Below are positions 6,458 to 41,975 of a DNA stretch of 64,000 nucleotides, piece after piece. The position numbers and the translations under genes are program-made. Every line of letters starts with the position of its first letter. The first letter of the stretch is position 1. This stretch comes from an uncultured Actinomycetes bacterium (GTDB lineage Bacteria; Actinomycetota; Acidimicrobiia; Acidimicrobiales; JACCXE01): NCBI GenBank assembly GCA_963722185.1, contig CAVRKD010000002.1, positions 79,362 through 143,361 of the forward strand, read 5' to 3'. Below the pieces are notes generated by a model. It saw nothing but the letters and a program-made list of their open reading frames with translations. It was not told the origin of the DNA and ran no database searches.

Positions 6458-6504
6458 TTCTTGGTGGATCTCTGTGCCGATTCGGGCCACGGATCCACCA
6501 AGAA
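6458..6504. repeat. 47-nt palindromic element (solo copy)
   Basis: TTCTTGGTGGATC...GATCCACCAAGAA, perfect 13-bp arms, total 47 nt. Confidence 0.75.
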
Positions 6505-12064: not shown

Positions 12065-12111
12065 TTCTTTGCAGCCAGACGGGTGCGAGAGCCCCACTTC
12101 GCTGCAATGAA
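12065..12111. repeat. 47-nt palindromic element (degenerate solo copy)
   Basis: TTCTTTGCAGC...GCTGCAATGAA, 10/11 arm match, total 47 nt. Confidence 0.55.
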
Positions 12112-18626: not shown

Positions 18627-19432
18627 CAGCGTGGTACTCCTAAGTTGTCGAGTAGTCGCGTCGTGCCGAACTTGGCAGCGACGAGGAGACGGATTTCGTG
18701 ATCGGTGACGACGGCCTCGGCGTAGTCGAGGGTCGCCCGTGGTTCGGCGTTGACGATTTCGGTGACGACGGCGATGGCGTTGTCGAGATCGGCGGCGCCG
18801 GCTTTCAGCGCGCGGTAGAGGACGGTGGAGGCGACGCGGTCTTCAGGTGACAGGTACACGTTGCGGCTCGACAGCGCGAGGCCGTCGGCTTCGCGGACGA
18901 TCGGGCACGGCACGACGTCGACGGGGAACGACAAGTCCTTGACCATCTGGCTGACGACCTGCAGTTGCTGGTAGTCCTTCTCGCCGAAGAACGCCTTGCA
19001 CTCGCCCGCGGCATTGAACAGTTTCGCCACCACCGTGGCCACGCCGTCGAAGTGCCCGGGCCGCACCGCGCCCTCCATGCCTTCGCTGACGCCGGCGACG
19101 TGGATTGTCGTCAGCACGGTCGTACCCGCCGGTCCGTACATCTCCTCGACCGAGGGATGGAAGACGTACGACGCGCCATGGGCCTCGGCCAGCGCGACGT
19201 CGTTCTCGAACGGGCGCGGGTACTTGGCCAGGTCCTCGTGCGGACCGAACTGCAGCGGGTTCACGAACACCGTGACGGCCACGATGTCGCAGATTGCGGC
19301 CGCGGCGTCGACGAGCGACGCGTGACCGGGGTGGAGTGCGCCCATCGTGGGCACCAGCCCGACCGTCTTGCCGGCGGCGCGCTCGGCGTCGAGCGCCTTG
19401 CGGAATCCAGCCACGGTGTCGATTACTTGCAT
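18626..19432 (-). CDS. panC: Pantoate--beta-alanine ligase
   Basis: [39 protein letters not shown]. Confidence 0.95.
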
Positions 19433-20164
19433 CGAGCGAGTTCCTCGGTCGAGGGAAGGAGCGCGTCGTACAAGGCGAGGTCACCGGGCGCGTGCGCGGC
19501 GATGGCCTCGCGGTGACGCTGGACGGTGCCGTAGTCGCCGCGGGCGACTGGGCCGGTCAGCGCCGCGGCGGCGCCGAGCTCTTCGACGTTGCCGACCACG
19601 GTCCGGGCGATCTCGAAATACGCCGACGCCGGGACGCCCGCCGCCGCGGCGAGCCGCTCGACTTGGCCGAGCACTGTCACGAGGTGGTTGCCGGCGACGC
19701 AGGACGCCGCGTGGTGCAGGGCGCGCACGTCGGGATCGTCGGCCAAGGTGATGGCACGGCCTCCGAGCGCGTCGACGATCTGCCGACCGATCACGTCGCA
19801 GCCTTCGGTGAGGGCGAACCACCCGTTGTCGAGCAGGCGCAGCGCGCCGATCGTCTGCGTTCGGCAGTCCCATGATCGGATGCACGACTGCCCGGCGAGC
19901 GTGCGGCGCCAGCACGTCCGGGCCGAGCGACCCGCTCAGGTGCACGACGGCGCACGTCGCCATCGGTTCGACCGCGGCGGCGACACTCGGAATGACCGCG
20001 TCCGGCACGGCGATGATCAGGACGTCGACGTCAGCGGCGGCGCCGTGGAGGTCGTCGGCACGGCCCAACGCGGGGGCGGCCGTCCACCCCGCTTTCGCCA
20101 GCGCGCGTCGGACAGAACCGCCGGCCCGGCCAGCGCCAACCACACGAAAGGAGGGGTTGCTCAT
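19423..20164 (-). CDS. Rossmann-like + DUF2520 protein (PanG/Rv3603c-like), frameshifted near 19855
   Basis: GAGRAG, IAVPD, HLSGS, VHP in one frame; HAASCVAGN, ALTGPVARGD in another; position next to panC. Confidence 0.8.
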
Positions 20165-20266
20165 TAGCTCGCATTCCGGCCCCAGGGTGGGTGCCGTTCG
20201 CTCAAGAAAACGGTACCAGAACCATTCGCCGCCGCGCCTTCCGCCCCCTCCCCCGGCCGCCGGCGT

Positions 20267-20313
20267 TTCTGGTTGTGGCTGGCGTTGCCGAGCAACGGCA
20301 GCCACAACCAGAA
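20267..20313. repeat. 47-nt palindromic element, left flank of the DUF559 gene
   Basis: TTCTGGTTGTGGCTG-G-CGTTGC-CGA-GCAACG-G-CAGCCACAACCAGAA. Confidence 0.9.
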
Positions 20314-20347
20314 CCTCGGTGTCACACCCCCTCGACAGGATCGGGCG

Positions 20348-21298
20348 ATGCCAAAGCTGTACGACGACCTAGCGAAGCTCGCTGACGCGACCGACCGCGT
20401 CGTCACTCGCGAAGCGCTCGACCGGATCGGATTCACCGAACAGCGCCGGCGGACGCTCGTTGGCCAGCGCCTGATCCAACTGCTTCACGAGGCCGTCTAC
20501 CTCATCGGCGCCGACAGCGCGACCTGGCGACAGCGCGCCCGAGCCGGCGTTCTGGCCGGCGGCGAGGACTCCTGGCTCTCGGGCCTGAGCGCCGTGCGGT
20601 GGTGGGGTGTCACGGTCCCGGAGGACGACGAGTCCGTCCACATCTCGACGTTTCGGACCGCTGGGTGCGATCCAGCTGGCGTAACGGTCCACCGACCGCG
20701 TCGCGCGGTCAAGGTGCTCACCCGCGACAAGGTCCGCGTTGCTTCCATCGAGGATGCGCTCCTCGACTTTGCGGCGTCGACGGATAGGGCCAAGCTCGAA
20801 TTGGTCGTCGAGAGCGCCCTTCTCAGCCGCAAGACACACGAACGGAAGATCTGGCGCGTCATCGCCCTCAACTCGAGAAAGGGCGTACGCGGCGTGGCGC
20901 TACTGCGGCACGTCATGGAGCACCGACCGAAGGGCAAGCCCGCTCGGAGCATCCTCGAGATCGAGGTGCTCGACGTCCTCCGCCATGCCGGTCTTCCCCT
21001 CCCGACACGCAACCACGACGTGATCGACGGCAACGGAGATAAGCGTGAGATCGACCTTTGTTACGTGGGCGTGCTGGGCGCGATCGAGGCCGACGGCAAG
21101 GCGTTTCACAGCACTGCGACGCAGACCGAGGCCGACAAGAAACGTCAACGCGCCCTTGAGGCGGTGGGGTTTCGCTTCGTGCGCGTGACGTGGGCCGACG
21201 TGTTCCAGCGGCCGGACTGGATCGTCACTGAGGTCCGCGGGCTTCTGGTTGTGCGTGACGTTGCTGTGCAACGGCACGCACAACCAGAAGCGTCATGA
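20348..21298 (+). CDS. AbiEi-like N-terminal domain + DUF559 (Vsr-like PD-(D/E)xK) endonuclease protein
   Basis: N-terminal AbiEi-like region (VVTREALDRIG...LHEAVY), RSILE, IDLCY...IEADGKAFH, DKKRQRALEAVGFRFVRVTW. Confidence 0.82.
   Translation: MPKLYDDLAKLADATDRVVTREALDRIGFTEQRRRTLVGQRLIQLLHEAVYLIGADSATWRQRARAGVLAGGEDSWLSGLSAVRWWGVTVPEDDESVHISTFRTAGCDPAGVTVHRPRRAVKVLTRDKVRVASIEDALLDFAASTDRAKLELVVESALLSRKTHERKIWRVIALNSRKGVRGVALLRHVMEHRPKGKPARSILEIEVLDVLRHAGLPLPTRNHDVIDGNGDKREIDLCYVGVLGAIEADGKAFHSTATQTEADKKRQRALEAVGFRFVRVTWADVFQRPDWIVTEVRGLLVVRDVAVQRHAQPEAS
21243..21289. repeat. 47-nt palindromic element, right flank (inside the DUF559 3' end)
   Basis: TTCTGGTTGTGCGTG-A-CGTTGC-TGT-GCAACG-G-CACGCACAACCAGAA. 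Confidence 0.9.
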
Positions 21299-22291
21299 CG
21301 GGCGGTGTTCCTCGAGCCAGGCGCGTTGTTGGTCGCTGAGAAGCGGCAGTGCGGCGGCGAAGTCTTCGTCGTCGCGGGGGCGCGAGTACTTGGCCTTGTA
21401 GAGGAGCTGCAGCTGCGGGGCGATGTAGGGGATGCCGTCGCTCGTGTGGAGGATCGCTTCGTCGAGGGGCAGCGTGACCGACGGGTCGCGGCGGTAGTAC
21501 AGGACCCCGTCGCGGATGTCCTCGAACATGATCTCGACCGACCACATCGCGTCGGGCGAAGGACGGCCCCAGATCTGATGCGCACCGTCGGCTGCGGGTA
21601 GGTGCCCGGGTGGCCAACGGACAAACGACCCCGGCCGGGGAATGAAGAACTCCCATCCCGGCAGCACCTCGTGCAGTTGCGCGAGGTCGTTGCGCGCGAC
21701 CGACACCTCGAGATCGTGGTGCTCGCGGAACGAGCGGCCGACGAAGAGCTCGATGGCCCAGCCACCGCAGATCGCCCACGGGCCGTCCCAGTCCCCGAAC
21801 CACCGCGCGGCGTCGGCTGGACGGACTGACAGGTCGAAGTCGCCCCACAGCGACGGCGCTTTCCGCAGGCCGCTCGTATCGAGGCCGTCGAGGCGATCGG
21901 CGTACTGCGGCGCGACCTCCACGAGAGGGACCACGGCGAACGCTCGCTCCCACAAGCGGGGGTGCGGCACCACCAGGTCGGGCTCGTTCACCTCGAGGTC
22001 GCCGACCAGCAGCACGTCGACATCGAGAGTCCGCGGCCCCCAGCGTTCGGTCCGCACGCGCCCCGCCGCCTCTTCAAGCGATCGGCACAGCTCCAGCAAC
22101 TCCCGCGGTGACCGTTCGGTCTCCAACGCCACCACCATGTTGAGGAACGCGCCCTGCCCTTCGGGCCCCCCGACCGGGTTGGTCTCCCAGACCGAGGACT
22201 GGTCGACGCGATCGGGGATGGCATCGATCGCCTGGCGCAGGTACTCGTCGCGGTCGCCGAGGTTGGACCCCAACCCGAGGTACGCCTTCAT
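21293..22291 (-). CDS. folK: FolK (HPPK) fused to a C-terminal aminoglycoside/lincosamide nucleotidyltransferase-like domain
   Basis: YLGLGSNLGDR, RWGPRTLDVDVL, PHPRLWERAF; then WAICGGWAIELFVG..REHHDLE, APQLQLLYKAK..RPRDDEDF. Confidence 0.88.
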   Translation of the reverse strand: MKAYLGLGSNLGDRDEYLRQAIDAIPDRVDQSSVWETNPVGGPEGQGAFLNMVVALETERSPRELLELCRSLEEAAGRVRTERWGPRTLDVDVLLVGDLEVNEPDLVVPHPRLWERAFAVVPLVEVAPQYADRLDGLDTSGLRKAPSLWGDFDLSVRPADAARWFGDWDGPWAICGGWAIELFVGRSFREHHDLEVSVARNDLAQLHEVLPGWEFFIPRPGSFVRWPPGHLPAADGAHQIWGRPSPDAMWSVEIMFEDIRDGVLYYRRDPSVTLPLDEAILHTSDGIPYIAPQLQLLYKAKYSRPRDDEDFAAALPLLSDQQRAWLEEHRPS

Positions 22292-22647
22292 CGGGAGACG
22301 GTGAGACGTACTCCTGCCCAGGCGAAGTCGTGCGCCACTGGCGGCCGCGTCTTGCGGAGCGCAATATCGACGGCGGTGATGCGCTCGTCGAGCGCGAGCA
22401 CCGCGTCGCCGATCAACTTCGCCAGACGCTCGATCAAGTTCTGCGACGGACCCTGCATCACATCGACGGCCGCTTGCACGATCGGTGAGTAGTCGACCGT
22501 GTCATCCAGGTTGTCGGACTCGGCGGACGCGCTCATGTCGAAGTACACATCGAGGTCGAACTCGAAGGGTTGCGGCCGGTCGCGTTCCTCCGGCAGCACG
22601 CCGTGGGTGCCGAGCACCCGCACACCGTGGATTTCGAGCACCGACAT
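22288..22647 (-). CDS. folB: Dihydroneopterin aldolase
   Basis: HGVLPEER..QPFEFDL, SDNLDDTVDY, NLIERLA, LRK. Confidence 0.9.
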   Translation of the reverse strand: MSVLEIHGVRVLGTHGVLPEERDRPQPFEFDLDVYFDMSASAESDNLDDTVDYSPIVQAAVDVMQGPSQNLIERLAKLIGDAVLALDERITAVDIALRKTRPPVAHDFAWAGVRLTVSR

Positions 22648-40938: not shown

Positions 40939-41975
40939 TCGCGTACGGCGTCGCCGACCGACGCGTGGTCGCCCGATTGCGCGACGGCGTCGTCGCCGTC
41001 GGAGACGTCATCGCCGATCCTGTGTTCGAACAGCCGTCGCTCAACGCCTTCATGGCCCAAGGCCCCGCCGCGTGGCGCGAGGTCCGCGAAACCCTTCTGG
41101 TTGGCTCTGGCGTTGCTGAGCAACGCCAGGGCCAACCAGAACGCATGACGATGCCGTTCGAGGTGGCGGACTACGTCGACTTCTACTCGTCGATTCACCA
41201 CGCCACGAACCTGGGCAGGCTCTTCCGTCCCGACAGTGAGCCGTTGCTGCCCAACTGGCGGCACCTGCCCGTCGGCTATCACGGCCGCGCCGGCACCGTC
41301 GTGGTGAGCGGCACCGACGTCGTGCGCCCGACGGGGCTCGTGCAGACCGAGGGTGGCGTCGTGCGCCAGCCGAGCGCCCGGCTCGACATCGAGTTGGAAG
41401 TCGGCTTCGTCGTCGGCGTCGGCAGCGACGGGCCGATCGCCGTCGACGGCGCCGACGCCCACGTGTTCGGCGCCGTGCTGGTCAACGACTGGAGCGCGCG
41501 CGACATCCAGGCCTTCGAGTACCAACCGCTCGGCCCGTTCCTCGGCAAGTCGTTCCTGACGTCGATCTCGCCGTGGGTCGTGCCGTTCGACGAACTGCGG
41601 CCGTTCCTGCGCGCCGCGCCACCACAAGACCCAGTCCCGGATCCCGGGCTGCGCGGCGAGCGCGACTGGGCCATCGACATGCAGCTGGAAGTTGAACTCA
41701 ACGGCACCGTCATTAGCCGCACCAACTTCGCCGACCTGTATTGGACCTTCGCTCAGCAACTGGCGCACATGACCAGCAACGGCGCCACCGCCCGCACGGG
41801 CGACCTGTTCGCGTCGGGCACCGTCTCGGGCGCCGAGCCCGACAGTTACGGATCGCTCATCGAGATGGGCCGCCCGTTCCTCGAAGACGGCGACACGGTT
41901 GTGCTGCGCGGCTGGTGCGGCGAAGGCGACGCTCGCGTCGATCTGGGCGACGTCACCAGTACGGTGCGTTCCTGA
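40935..41975 (+). CDS. fahA: Fumarylacetoacetase
   Basis: DYVDFYSSIHHA, LPVGYHGRA, LDIELE, NDWSARDIQ, PLGPFLGKSF, SGTVSG. Confidence 0.9.
   Translation: MIAYGVADRRVVARLRDGVVAVGDVIADPVFEQPSLNAFMAQGPAAWREVRETLLVGSGVAEQRQGQPERMTMPFEVADYVDFYSSIHHATNLGRLFRPDSEPLLPNWRHLPVGYHGRAGTVVVSGTDVVRPTGLVQTEGGVVRQPSARLDIELEVGFVVGVGSDGPIAVDGADAHVFGAVLVNDWSARDIQAFEYQPLGPFLGKSFLTSISPWVVPFDELRPFLRAAPPQDPVPDPGLRGERDWAIDMQLEVELNGTVISRTNFADLYWTFAQQLAHMTSNGATARTGDLFASGTVSGAEPDSYGSLIEMGRPFLEDGDTVVLRGWCGEGDARVDLGDVTSTVRS
41095..41141. repeat. 47-nt palindromic element inside the fahA coding sequence
   Basis: TTCTGGTTGGCTCTG-G-CGTTGC-TGA-GCAACG-C-CAGGGCCAACCAGAA. Confidence 0.88.

What the first reader, a model, noticed from the sequence alone, without database searches (positions are those of the whole stretch)
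20190..21298. DUF559 nuclease gene bracketed by covarying 47-nt hairpins: candidate REP/RAYT-like mobile system with a non-HUH enzyme
Seen: an AbiEi-like/DUF559 gene lies antisense inside the conserved folK-DUF2520-panC cluster. It is flanked at 20267-20313 and 21243-21289 by 47-nt hairpins with one architecture: 15-bp arm, 1-nt mismatch, CGTTGC-NNN-GCAACG, 15-bp arm. The arms differ by compensatory changes (GGCTG/CAGCC vs GCGTG/CACGC), so structure is maintained. A decayed hairpin ending CCAGAA sits at 20190-20221. The right copy encodes the protein's last residues. Further 47-nt copies occur at 6458, 12065 and 41095. Established: REP sequences flank, and are spread by, HUH-type RAYT transposases; DUF559 is a Vsr-like PD-(D/E)xK nuclease. 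Inference: this nuclease recognises and disperses its cognate hairpins, an analogous system that I do not recall being characterised.
Basis: partly seen in the sequence, partly recalled or inferred. Interest (0 to 1): 0.86.

Follow-up and report, generated by a model that had tools for sequence, protein, structure and literature searches.

The report
Nuclease genes bracketed by own hairpins
A soil actinobacterium carries about fifteen nuclease genes, each boxed in by two copies of its own 47-base DNA hairpin that is also scattered behind other genes, which looks like a REP/RAYT-style repeat system run by a different kind of enzyme.

Summary
The core observation holds. The gene at 20348-21298 is bracketed by two exact-architecture 47-nt hairpins with compensated stem changes. 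It is not a one-off. In this genome 14 of 15 paralogous genes (an AbiEi-like DNA-binding module fused to a Vsr/DUF559 nuclease) carry a hairpin at the stop codon and the same hairpin type about 1 kb upstream. Each gene has a different hairpin type. Seven of 10 multi-copy hairpin families have such a 'master' gene. Across relatives, 61 of 81 elements show the bracket. No HUH/Y1 transposase was found in the 10 genomes of the genus.

Two sister genomes differ in the cassette at one locus. One holds a divergent allele with a different hairpin type. That type has 17 loci there and 0 in the sister. Solo sites switch type in step with the resident gene. One solo insertion has an empty site in the sister genome and a 22-nt target duplication.

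Enzymatic action on the hairpins is inferred, not shown. No paper describing this pairing turned up in seven literature searches.

The parts
20267..20313 (.). 5' bracket hairpin, 47 nt (22-bp stem with one G.G mismatch, 3-nt loop), family 5
20320..20341 (+). Promoter-like motif (TGTCACACCCCC, then a -10-like ACAGGAT) 6 nt before the ATG. This is the host's common promoter type, so the mRNA is probably leaderless.
   Evidence: the same motif stands before many unrelated ORFs, and in 38 of 81 elements
20348..21298 (+). Gene for a 316-aa protein. Residues 1-200 are AbiEi-like (winged helix plus second domain). Residues 215-300 are a Vsr/DUF559-type nuclease with invariant D236, E247 and D263.
21243..21289 (.). 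3' bracket hairpin, 47 nt, same family. It lies inside the last 19 codons of the gene and 4 nt from the stop codon of the convergent folK.
41095..41141 (.). Solo copy of the same hairpin family (family 5). Two more lie on other contigs (C1:24211, C3:242076).
6458..6504 (.). 47-nt hairpin of another family of the same superfamily (TTCTTGGTGGATC type). No cognate gene was found.
12065..12111 (.). Decayed 47-nt hairpin of the TTCTTTGCAGC type, the type that brackets the paralogous gene at C9:208734-209750.

Best explanation
The window gene is one member of a large set of single-copy genes. Each encodes an AbiEi-like DNA-binding module fused to a Vsr/DUF559 (PD-(D/E)xK-like) nuclease. Each sits in a cassette of about 1.05-1.1 kb: hairpin, own promoter, ORF, hairpin. 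The two hairpins are of one type, and that type is private to the gene. The same type occurs as solo 47-nt copies, mostly within a few bases of stop codons and often filling the spacer between convergent genes.

Most likely the protein recognises its own hairpin type. The conserved basal and apical parts of the stem would be read, and the middle only has to pair. By nicking or cutting there, the protein would drive two processes: copying of the hairpin into new sites, and overwriting of older hairpins of related type. This would be a REP/RAYT-like partnership in which a nuclease plus host repair replaces the HUH transposase.

Shown: the architecture, the pairing of gene and hairpin type, the lack of a Y1 transposase in the genomes searched, the family burst linked to a cassette swap, one new insertion with a target duplication, and purifying selection on the proteins.

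Inferred: binding, cleavage, and that the enzyme causes the spread.
For: 1. Architecture.
- 14 of 15 paralogues in this genome have the hairpin at the stop codon and a matching one 950-1055 nt upstream.
- 61 of 81 elements from 21 related genomes exceed the 99th percentile of a non-cognate null. The cognate median score is 51 against 22 for the null.
- 7 of 24 loci from more distant families of the phylum do so too.

2. Enrichment. In a uniform structural scan, 7 of 154 long hairpins lie in the 9 kb around the ends of the 15 genes. By my arithmetic about 0.34 would be expected.

3. Private types.
- Paralogues are 19-41% identical to the window protein, and the closest intact pair is 62%.
- Each has a different hairpin, and 7 of 10 multi-copy families have a bracketed gene.
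- Genes are single-copy per type, while hairpins reach 12 near-identical copies.

4. Clade-level features.
- In the AACTGG clade (paralogues p6 and p11 and their relatives) the basal GAACTGG is kept while the inner stems differ.
- A GGTCTT loop is kept across hairpins with different stems in another clade.
- Hairpin similarity decays quickly with protein distance (Mantel r 0.147, p 0.001).

5. No Y1_Tnp match in this genome or in the 10 genus genomes searched; 1 of 21 relatives has one.

6. Sister genomes G005 and G007, about 94-96% identical in DNA.
- At one locus, with flanks 95-100% alike, the cassette differs as a whole: dS 0.94 against 0.11-0.36 for four of the five other sister pairs (0.62 for the fifth, L080/L096), and both hairpins are of another type.
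- Type A has 17 loci in G005 and 0 in G007. Type B has 11 loci in G005, none bracketing a gene, and 8 in G007, two of which bracket the gene.

7. Solo sites follow the resident gene.
- One site is type A in G005 and type B in G007, with the same flanks.
- At another site four species hold four types, and three of these match the bracket of a gene in the same genome.

8. New insertion. One spacer is 130 nt in G005 but 52 nt in G007 and 53 nt in G000. The extra 78 nt are a 56-nt insert (hairpin plus 9 nt) and a 22-nt direct repeat of the target, 19 of 22 bases alike.

9. Protein.
- The AlphaFold model has pLDDT 90.9.
- The N-terminal 200 aa resemble AbiEi (6y8q, E 4e-6). The C-terminal part resembles the I-Bth0305I catalytic domain (TM 0.75 on the target), Vsr and 3hrl.
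- The D..ExD motif is invariant or nearly so.
- dN/dS is 0.10-0.34.
Against: - No biochemical or genetic evidence exists. PD-(D/E)xK/Vsr-type nucleases form no covalent intermediate, so they cannot carry out strand transfer alone. The copying step has no known precedent for this fold.
- Some brackets have no solo copies. The G004 type tested occurs only at the two gene flanks, and in this genome 2-3 of 14 types have none.
- Two multi-copy families here (8 and 7 copies) have no gene. The assembly is 91% complete, or they may be orphans like type B in G005.
- One protein clade (C4:41952 and 5 relatives) has no hairpins, and only 7 of 24 distant relatives show the bracket.
- Five of the 9 type-B solo sites followed between the sister genomes are simply inherited in both, so mobility is slow.
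- Only one clean filled-versus-empty pair with a target duplication was found.
- G007 is 86% complete and 2.4 Mb against 4.0 Mb, so '0 type-A loci' is weaker than it looks. Three orthologous positions do show B where G005 has A.
- Compensated stem changes in a DNA palindrome can arise by template switching without any selection or enzyme.
Confidence: 0.6

Rival explanations
1. The mobile unit is the whole cassette (hairpin-gene-hairpin). The palindromic hairpins are its ends, or its target duplicated on insertion. Solo hairpins are footprints left when the two bracket copies recombine and delete the gene, as with solo LTRs. The nuclease serves the gene's own homing, not hairpin dispersal.
For: - The bracket is the constant feature, and some types have no solos.
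- The folK-DUF2520 site holds a cassette in G000 and G008 (there a frameshifted one), a solo hairpin in G003, G001 and G005, and nothing clear in G004, G002 and G009.
- A whole cassette was exchanged at one locus between sister genomes.
- The nearest characterised nuclease domain is a homing endonuclease.
Against: - No two gene copies in a genome are close. The highest identity is 62% among intact G000 paralogues, whereas hairpins reach 95-100% identity in up to 12 copies.
- Type A has 15 solos for one gene in G005.
- The new insertion in G005 is 56 nt plus a 22-nt duplication at a site that is empty in the sister genome at about 5% divergence. This would need a cassette to insert and then be exactly deleted in a short time.
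- Bracket copies are in direct orientation in 6 and inverted in 8 of 14 elements. A target duplication would always be direct, although loops of palindromes can flip.
Confidence: 0.2
2. The hairpins are host elements, such as bidirectional terminators or mRNA-stabilising stem-loops without a U-tract, as is common in high-GC actinobacteria. They evolve quickly under selection for pairing. The nuclease cassettes merely prefer to insert at such hairpins or need them as insulators.
For: - 30 of 48 solo family copies lie within 30 nt of a called stop codon, against 3.75% of random 47-mers. 28 of 48 lie between convergent ORFs, often filling the whole spacer.
- The same spacers hold different hairpins in different species.
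Against: - Ordinary terminators do not form families of near-identical 47-nt copies with fixed length and conserved ends.
- No T-run follows the hairpins.
- Both bracket copies and the solo copies change type together with the resident gene. A host terminator has no reason to do so.
- Conserved mismatches and conserved loop motifs suggest recognition by a protein.
- A host role as terminator can still coexist with the main explanation.
Confidence: 0.1
3. The protein is a regulator or a defence/toxin-antitoxin-like factor. Its AbiEi-like module binds the palindromes as operators for autoregulation or a small regulon, and the nuclease acts on foreign DNA. The hairpins are binding sites, not mobile DNA.
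For: - The fold of the first 200 residues matches the AbiEi antitoxin and Rv2827c, which bind inverted repeats (the binding is my recollection of the AbiEi literature, not read here).
- There are weak NCBIfam hits of the nuclease part to the large anti-phage proteins Hhe and ProA, at E 2e-4 and 2e-3, far below the cut-offs.
Against: - No AbiEii-type partner gene is adjacent. The neighbours are folK and the DUF2520/pan genes.
- Most solo copies sit at 3' ends between convergent genes, a poor place for operators.
- One bracket copy is at the 3' end of the gene itself.
- This reading does not explain the family bursts or the insertion with a target duplication.
Confidence: 0.07

Closest known systems
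REP/REPIN sequences with their RAYT (REP-associated tyrosine transposase, HUH/Y1 family)
   Same: - A single-copy gene is bracketed by its own palindromic repeats.
- The same repeats are dispersed in tens of copies in intergenic spacers at gene ends.
- Several gene/repeat families coexist in one genome.
- Inheritance is mostly vertical, and orphan repeat families are left after gene loss or replacement.
(. The RAYT features come from the abstracts listed and from my own knowledge.)
   Different: - The enzyme is unrelated: an AbiEi-like module plus a Vsr/DUF559 nuclease, with no Y1_Tnp domain in the 10 genus genomes searched.
- It has no catalytic tyrosine chemistry, so the transfer mechanism must differ.
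- The repeat is a single long hairpin of fixed 47 nt rather than a 20-40-nt REP or a REP doublet.
- There is no conserved GTAG/CGTC end tag.
- One insertion shows a 22-nt target duplication.
I-Bth0305I and the EDxHD (Vsr-like) homing endonucleases
   Same: - The catalytic domain fold matches (3r3p, TM 0.75 on the target; profile E 1e-3).
- The nuclease is joined to an N-terminal helix-turn-helix DNA-binding region.
- The target is long and pseudo-palindromic and is nicked on each strand (passages read in PMC3239194).
   Different: - These genes are free-standing chromosomal genes with their own promoter, not inside introns or inteins.
- They are bracketed by intact copies of the presumed site.
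- Their N-terminal module is AbiEi-like rather than NUMOD.
AbiEi antitoxin of type IV toxin-antitoxin system AbiE (6y8q) and M. tuberculosis Rv2827c (1zel)
   Same: The fold of residues 1-200 matches (Foldseek E 4e-6 and 6e-4). 2 of 14 paralogues also hit Pfam AbiEi_4 and 1 hits AbiEi_3_N.
   Different: There is no AbiEii nucleotidyltransferase partner gene next to it. The C-terminal end carries a nuclease instead.
Vsr very-short-patch repair endonuclease and DUF559 proteins (3hrl)
   Same: The nuclease fold and acidic catalytic motif match.
   Different: - Vsr is a small stand-alone mismatch nickase tied to a cytosine methyltransferase.
- Here the domain is fused to a 200-aa DNA-binding module, is multi-paralogous (15 per genome), and is tied to hairpin repeats.

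Membership tests
REP/RAYT system | Enzyme is a HUH/Y1 tyrosine transposase (Pfam Y1_Tnp) | tested here: not met
   No Y1_Tnp match in the own genome or in the 10 genus genomes searched; 1 of 21 relatives has one. The bracketed protein has MTES_1575/DUF559 domains.
REP/RAYT system | Single-copy gene flanked on both sides by its cognate palindromic repeats | tested here: met
   14 of 15 genes in this genome and 61 of 81 in relatives. The closest intact paralogues are 62% identical.
REP/RAYT system | Same repeats dispersed in many extragenic copies | tested here: met
   There are 10 multi-copy families of 2-12 copies, 7 with a cognate gene. 30 of 48 solos lie within 30 nt of a stop codon. Copy numbers are lower than in classical REP hosts.
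REP/RAYT system | Enzyme binds and cleaves its REP as single-stranded DNA | not testable with these tools
   Needs biochemistry.
DUF559 / Vsr-like nuclease superfamily | Sequence match to the family models above the curated cut-off | tested here: met
   MTES_1575 scores 41.5 bits (cut-off 38.2) and DUF559 scores 21.8 bits (cut-off 20.6). 9 of 14 paralogues hit DUF559 and 6 of 14 hit MTES_1575.
DUF559 / Vsr-like nuclease superfamily | Vsr-type fold with conserved acidic catalytic residues | tested here: met
   Foldseek hits 3r3p, 1cw0, 1vsr and 3hrl. The profile hits 3hrl at 1.4e-9. D236, E247 and D263 are invariant. The D of ExD is replaced in 3 of 14 paralogues.
AbiEi antitoxin (type IV TA) | AbiEi two-domain fold | tested here: met
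   6y8q at E 4.4e-6 and 1zel at 5.6e-4.
AbiEi antitoxin (type IV TA) | Adjacent AbiEii nucleotidyltransferase toxin gene | tested here: not met
   The neighbours are folK and the DUF2520-like gene, and the cassette holds one ORF only.
EDxHD homing endonucleases | Gene resides in a self-splicing intron or intein and cuts the intron-less allele | tested here: not met
   The gene is free-standing and intergenic with its own promoter motif.
Insertion sequence / autonomous transposon | Several near-identical gene copies per genome | tested here: not met
   Paralogues are 19-48% identical to the window protein. The closest intact pair is 62%.
Intrinsic (U-tract) terminator | GC-rich hairpin followed by a run of T | tested here: not met
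   No T-run follows the bracket or solo hairpins. Termination without a U-tract was not tested.
Known RNA families (Rfam 15) | Match to a curated covariance model | tested here: not met
   0 matches at E<=1 in window 19000-22500.

The most novel reading that the evidence does not exclude
These cassettes would be a new class of nuclease-driven repeat system in which no transposase is involved. A Vsr-type nickase, aimed by an AbiEi-like module, nicks its cognate hairpin when it is extruded or single-stranded, and host repair does the rest. Repair from another copy spreads or overwrites hairpins, which amounts to intragenomic homing with a long target duplication. Repair of one arm against the other restores pairing after any mutation. 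That would explain why 4-8 bp in the middle of the stem are rewritten with perfect compensation between copies and between sister species, while the ends and apex stay fixed.
Probability: 0.25. Interest if true: 0.9.

Novelty: new variant of a known kind. Interest (0 to 1): 0.82.

Why it matters
REP-type repeats are among the commonest repeats in bacteria, yet only one enzyme family (RAYT) has been tied to them. Many REP-like families, such as the CGTC-tagged ones, have no known partner (passage read in PMC3733652).

Here a second, unrelated enzyme type shows the same genomic signature. It does so in a phylum where the protein family is common: 69 of 151 sampled genomes, or 63 of 145 without the six unpublished ones.

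If the nuclease acts on its hairpins, three things follow:
- DUF559/AbiEi-like fusion proteins, so far of unknown function, gain a function.
- It shows how a hydrolytic nuclease plus host repair can maintain and spread short DNA.
- It supplies a set of natural protein/47-bp-site pairs with private specificities.

The claim is directly testable with oligonucleotides and purified protein.

Tried and rejected
- Rfam at a permissive threshold on 19000-22500 gave no match.
A 3-row alignment found only 5 loci in named MAG records (L054-L058), and I did not analyse them.
- A fuzzy motif scan of the genome was far too permissive and was discarded. The structural scan replaced it.
- My first hairpin finder missed bulged hairpins. 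It was replaced by aligning the 3' region to the 5' flank against a non-cognate null.
- Public runs: 4 soil-metagenome runs of one study hold parts of the stretch, and no RNA holder is listed. Their contigs are short and none covers either hairpin, so nothing can be said on variants or expression.
- Sister-genome sites L133, L139 and L146 could not be resolved. They involve a 13-kb island next to a tRNA, a non-orthologous downstream flank and a contig end. Sites L154 and L156 had no conserved left flank and no G007 match.
- I considered that the motif GTGTYACACCCC before the start codons was an operator of the AbiEi-like domain. I rejected this because the motif, with a -10-like TAnnnT, stands before many unrelated ORFs genome-wide.
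- I considered integron attC sites and IS200/IS605 ends. There is no integrase or Y1 gene context, and the ends do not fit from recollection. This was not tested further.
- I considered fast in-situ evolution of the L039/L037 gene. A dS of 0.94 points to replacement of the cassette instead.
- Literature searches: of the 25 papers that hold 'DUF559' (22 were listed), none is about hairpin repeats, judged by title or abstract listing. There were 0 papers for REP-associated+endonuclease+Actinobacteria+palindromic. I read passages only of PMC3733652, PMC3710099 and PMC3239194. Supplements were not seen, subscription journals are not covered, and the seven searches were few.
Full report
THE OBSERVATION

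Window 20267-20313 and 21243-21289 are two 47-nt hairpins with identical architecture. They bracket an ORF at 20348..21298 on the + strand (316 aa). Its C-terminal third hits Pfam MTES_1575 (1.4e-10) and DUF559 (1.8e-4). The gene lies antisense between folK (21293..22291, -) and the DUF2520-like/panC/panD genes. The right hairpin lies inside the last 19 codons.

On the five copies of this family (two bracket copies, window 41095, C1:24211, C3:242076), 98.2% of cells pair. Four pairs changed on both sides, and all variation sits in four consecutive pairs. None of 500 shuffles reached the covariation score.

Two details of the finding are wrong.
- The '20190-20221 decayed hairpin' is part of a leader upstream of DUF2520. 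That leader is conserved in all eight genus genomes compared, with or without the nuclease gene.
- The hairpins at 6458 and 12065 are 47 nt long but belong to other sequence families.

IT IS A SYSTEM, NOT ONE LOCUS

The window lies in a 4.09-Mb, 67% GC, 10-contig assembly that is 91% complete. It holds 15 full-length paralogues of the protein plus fragments. They are 19-41% identical to the window protein in the alignment (up to 48%), and the closest intact pair is 62%.

In 14 of the 15, a 40-50-nt hairpin overlaps or directly follows the stop codon. The same hairpin type recurs 950-1055 nt upstream (764-809 nt in the 5'-truncated pseudogene at C3:100574), ahead of the start. Only C4:41952-42830 has none. 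Each gene has a different hairpin sequence.

A uniform scan finds 154 long hairpins in the genome. Ten multi-copy families have sizes 12, 8, 8, 7, 6, 5, 4, 3, 3 and 2, and most members are about 47 nt long with A/T-rich, TG-containing ends. Seven of the ten families have a bracketed gene. Two families, of 8 and 7 copies, have none. Seven of the 154 hairpins lie in the 9 kb around the ends of the 15 genes, where I calculate about 0.34 by chance.

Conservation of solo copies stops at the base of the hairpin.

RELATIVES

The protein family is present in 20 of 21 related genomes of the order, at 1-17 copies each.

I collected 81 elements from these genomes. For each I aligned the 3' region with the 5' flank, and for a null I aligned it with the 5' flanks of other elements. 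61 of 81 exceed the 99th percentile of the null (33.8). The cognate median is 51 and the null median is 22. The matched segments fold as hairpins at the stop codon and near -1000. A clade around C4:41952 (L066, L073, L079, L080, L096) has none.

In a sample of the phylum the family occurs in 69 of 151 genomes. Without the six genomes flagged unpublished, all of which have a match, that is 63 of 145. Of 24 loci from these more distant genomes, 7 pass the same threshold and 5 are clear (loci from unpublished genomes were left out).

WHAT THE PROTEIN IS

The AlphaFold2 model has mean pLDDT 90.9.
- Foldseek matches residues 1-200 to the AbiEi antitoxin (6y8q, E 4e-6) and to Rv2827c (1zel).
- A profile search of PDB sequences gives 3hrl (1.4e-9), PvuRts1I (4e-5) and 3r3p (1e-3).
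- D236, E247 and D263 are invariant. The D of the ExD motif is replaced in 3 of 14 paralogues.

Between the 5' hairpin and the ATG stands a motif, TGTYACACCCC followed by a -10-like hexamer 6-7 nt before the start. I first took it for an operator. It occurs before many unrelated ORFs in the genome, so it is the host's promoter type, and the genes are probably leaderless. In one clade the ribosome-binding site is instead sequestered in a conserved stem.

dN/dS between sister-genome orthologues is 0.10-0.34, so the proteins are kept by selection.

WHERE THE SOLO COPIES SIT

With crude ORF calls (2836 ORFs, 79% coverage), 30 of 48 solo family copies lie within 30 nt of a stop codon, against 3.75% of random 47-mers. 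28 of 48 lie between convergent ORFs, often with 0-17 nt on either side. No T-run follows them.

IS ANOTHER ENZYME RESPONSIBLE?

No Y1_Tnp (RAYT/IS200) match exists in the genome or in the 10 genus genomes searched. One of 21 relatives has one. The control genomes ring as expected.

COUPLING OF GENE AND HAIRPIN TYPE

Hairpin similarity falls off quickly with protein distance. Only pairs at or above 60% protein identity share recognisable hairpins (Mantel r 0.147, p 0.001). Kin are not independent, so this alone is weak.

Clade-level features persist while the inner stems differ. In the AACTGG clade (paralogues p6 and p11 and their relatives) the basal GAACTGG is kept in 7 of 8 elements, by my count. 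A GGTCTT loop is kept in most members of another clade. A conserved loop and conserved stem mismatches (family 2) suggest that the folded form is read.

THE SISTER GENOMES G005 AND G007 GIVE THE STRONGEST EVIDENCE

These two genomes are 94-96% identical over shared loci.

(a) A cassette swap.
- At one locus the flanks are 95-100% identical, but the cassette differs as a whole. Both hairpins are of type A in G005 and of type B in G007.
- The genes have dS 0.94. The other sister pairs have dS 0.11-0.36, and one has 0.62.
- So a divergent cassette with its own hairpins replaced the other one. This is not fast evolution in place.

(b) A family burst.
- Type A has 17 loci in G005 (2 bracket the gene) and 0 in G007.
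- Type B has 11 loci in G005, none bracketing a gene, and 8 in G007, 2 of which bracket the gene.
- G007 is only 86% complete, but three orthologous positions show B where G005 has A.

(c) A solo site that switched type. One solo site is A in G005 and B in G007, with the same flanks.

(d) Stability. Five B solo sites are orthologous in both genomes, so most copies are inherited.

(e) A new insertion.
- At the site of G005:C10:14880 the spacer between fixed anchors is 130 nt in G005, 52 nt in G007 and 53 nt in G000.
- The extra 78 nt are 7 nt, the 47-nt hairpin, 2 nt, and a 22-nt direct repeat of the target (19 of 22 bases alike).

(f) A second site.
- At the site of G005:C15:30772, G005 has type A, and G000, G003, G004 and G008 have no hairpin.
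- G001 has another type, which matches the bracket of its own gene L089.
- G007 has a 2.4-kb ORF there.

(g) A third site. Four species hold four hairpin types. G005's is A, G003's matches the bracket of its own gene L078, and G001's matches that of its own gene L086.

(h) Clustering. Type-A copies lie 11-12 nt from B copies at three sites.

At the window's own site, G008 also holds a cassette. It is frameshifted, its protein is closer to another paralogue than to the window protein, and it has its own hairpin type. G003, G001 and G005 hold solo hairpins of other types, and G004, G002 and G009 hold nothing clear.

READING

The association is as firm as comparative data can make it.

The direction of cause is inferred. 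A family burst that follows the arrival of a cassette, orphan copies where the gene was replaced, solo copies that track the resident gene's type, and the lack of any other candidate enzyme all point one way: the nuclease acts on its own hairpins and drives their spread and homogenisation. I put this at 0.6.

The main rival is that the cassette is the mobile unit and the solo copies are its footprints (0.2). It is supported by brackets without solos, by the mixed states at the folK site, and by the cassette swap itself. It fits poorly with single-copy genes against many near-identical hairpins, and with the 56-nt insertion at a site that is empty in the sister genome. A host role of the hairpins as terminators is compatible with either reading.

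How a hydrolytic nuclease could copy DNA is open. Nick- or break-induced repair from another copy would explain the overwriting. A staggered cut would explain the long target duplication. Repair of one arm against the other would explain the rewritten but always paired middle of the stem. None of this is shown.

NOVELTY

Seven full-text searches found no paper linking DUF559, MTES_1575, AbiEi fusions or Vsr-like nucleases with hairpin repeats. I saw listings for these and read passages of three papers.

I file this as a new variant of the REP/RAYT kind of system, with an unrelated enzyme. If the repair-driven mechanism holds, it would deserve a class of its own.

Noticed in passing
window 20168-20240 (- strand leader of the DUF2520-like gene): A stretch of about 70 nt upstream of the DUF2520/panC/panD genes is conserved in all 8 genus genomes compared and contains a short stem (GGTACCGTTTT..AACGGCACC). 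It has no Rfam match. It may be a cis-regulatory leader of the pantothenate genes.
   Followed up: partly
genome-wide, e.g. window 20320-20341; G000 C4:380726, C9:68264, C5:149768: A motif TGTYACACCCC, then 5-6 nt, then TAnnnT, then 6-8 nt, then ATG/GTG stands before many unrelated ORFs. It looks like the organism's main promoter type with leaderless starts.
   Followed up: partly
window 21293-22291 (-): folK (HPPK domain, residues 4-128) is fused to a C-terminal part of about 200 aa with a weak match to the aminoglycoside-2''-adenylyltransferase family (PF10706, 3.7e-5). The fusion is kept in 8 of 10 genus genomes.
   Followed up: no
window 19423-20167 (-): The DUF2520-like gene seems split over two frames. 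The Rossmann-like N-terminal part is in the frame of 20167 downwards, and a plausible C-terminal part is in the ORF 19423-19794. This suggests a frameshift or an assembly error near 19800.
   Followed up: no
L014, L036, L022, L038, L020, L061, L071, L093 (5' of the start codon): In one clade of the nuclease genes the ribosome-binding site (GAAGGGG) is paired with an upstream CCCCTTC in a conserved stem right before the start codon. This suggests tight translational repression.
   Followed up: no
G005:C21:1182-14084 versus G007:C152 (L133, L149, L150): A 13-kb segment present in G005 and absent in G007 lies next to a tRNA gene. One of its ends coincides with the position where G007 has a type-B hairpin.
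   Followed up: no
G000 C10:201189, C10:354541, C2:270437, C10:660288, C2:386289, C6:205402: There is a further family of shorter (37-39 nt) hairpins with the core CCTGTGGATGAG. It has no link to the nuclease genes and a different length class.
   Followed up: no
L081 versus L098 (G005:C33 / G007:C141), 3' end of the gene: G005 has two tandem copies of the 3' hairpin, 10 nt apart, where G007 has one. The middle 6-8 bp of the stem are entirely different but paired in both, while the ends and loop region are kept.
   Followed up: partly
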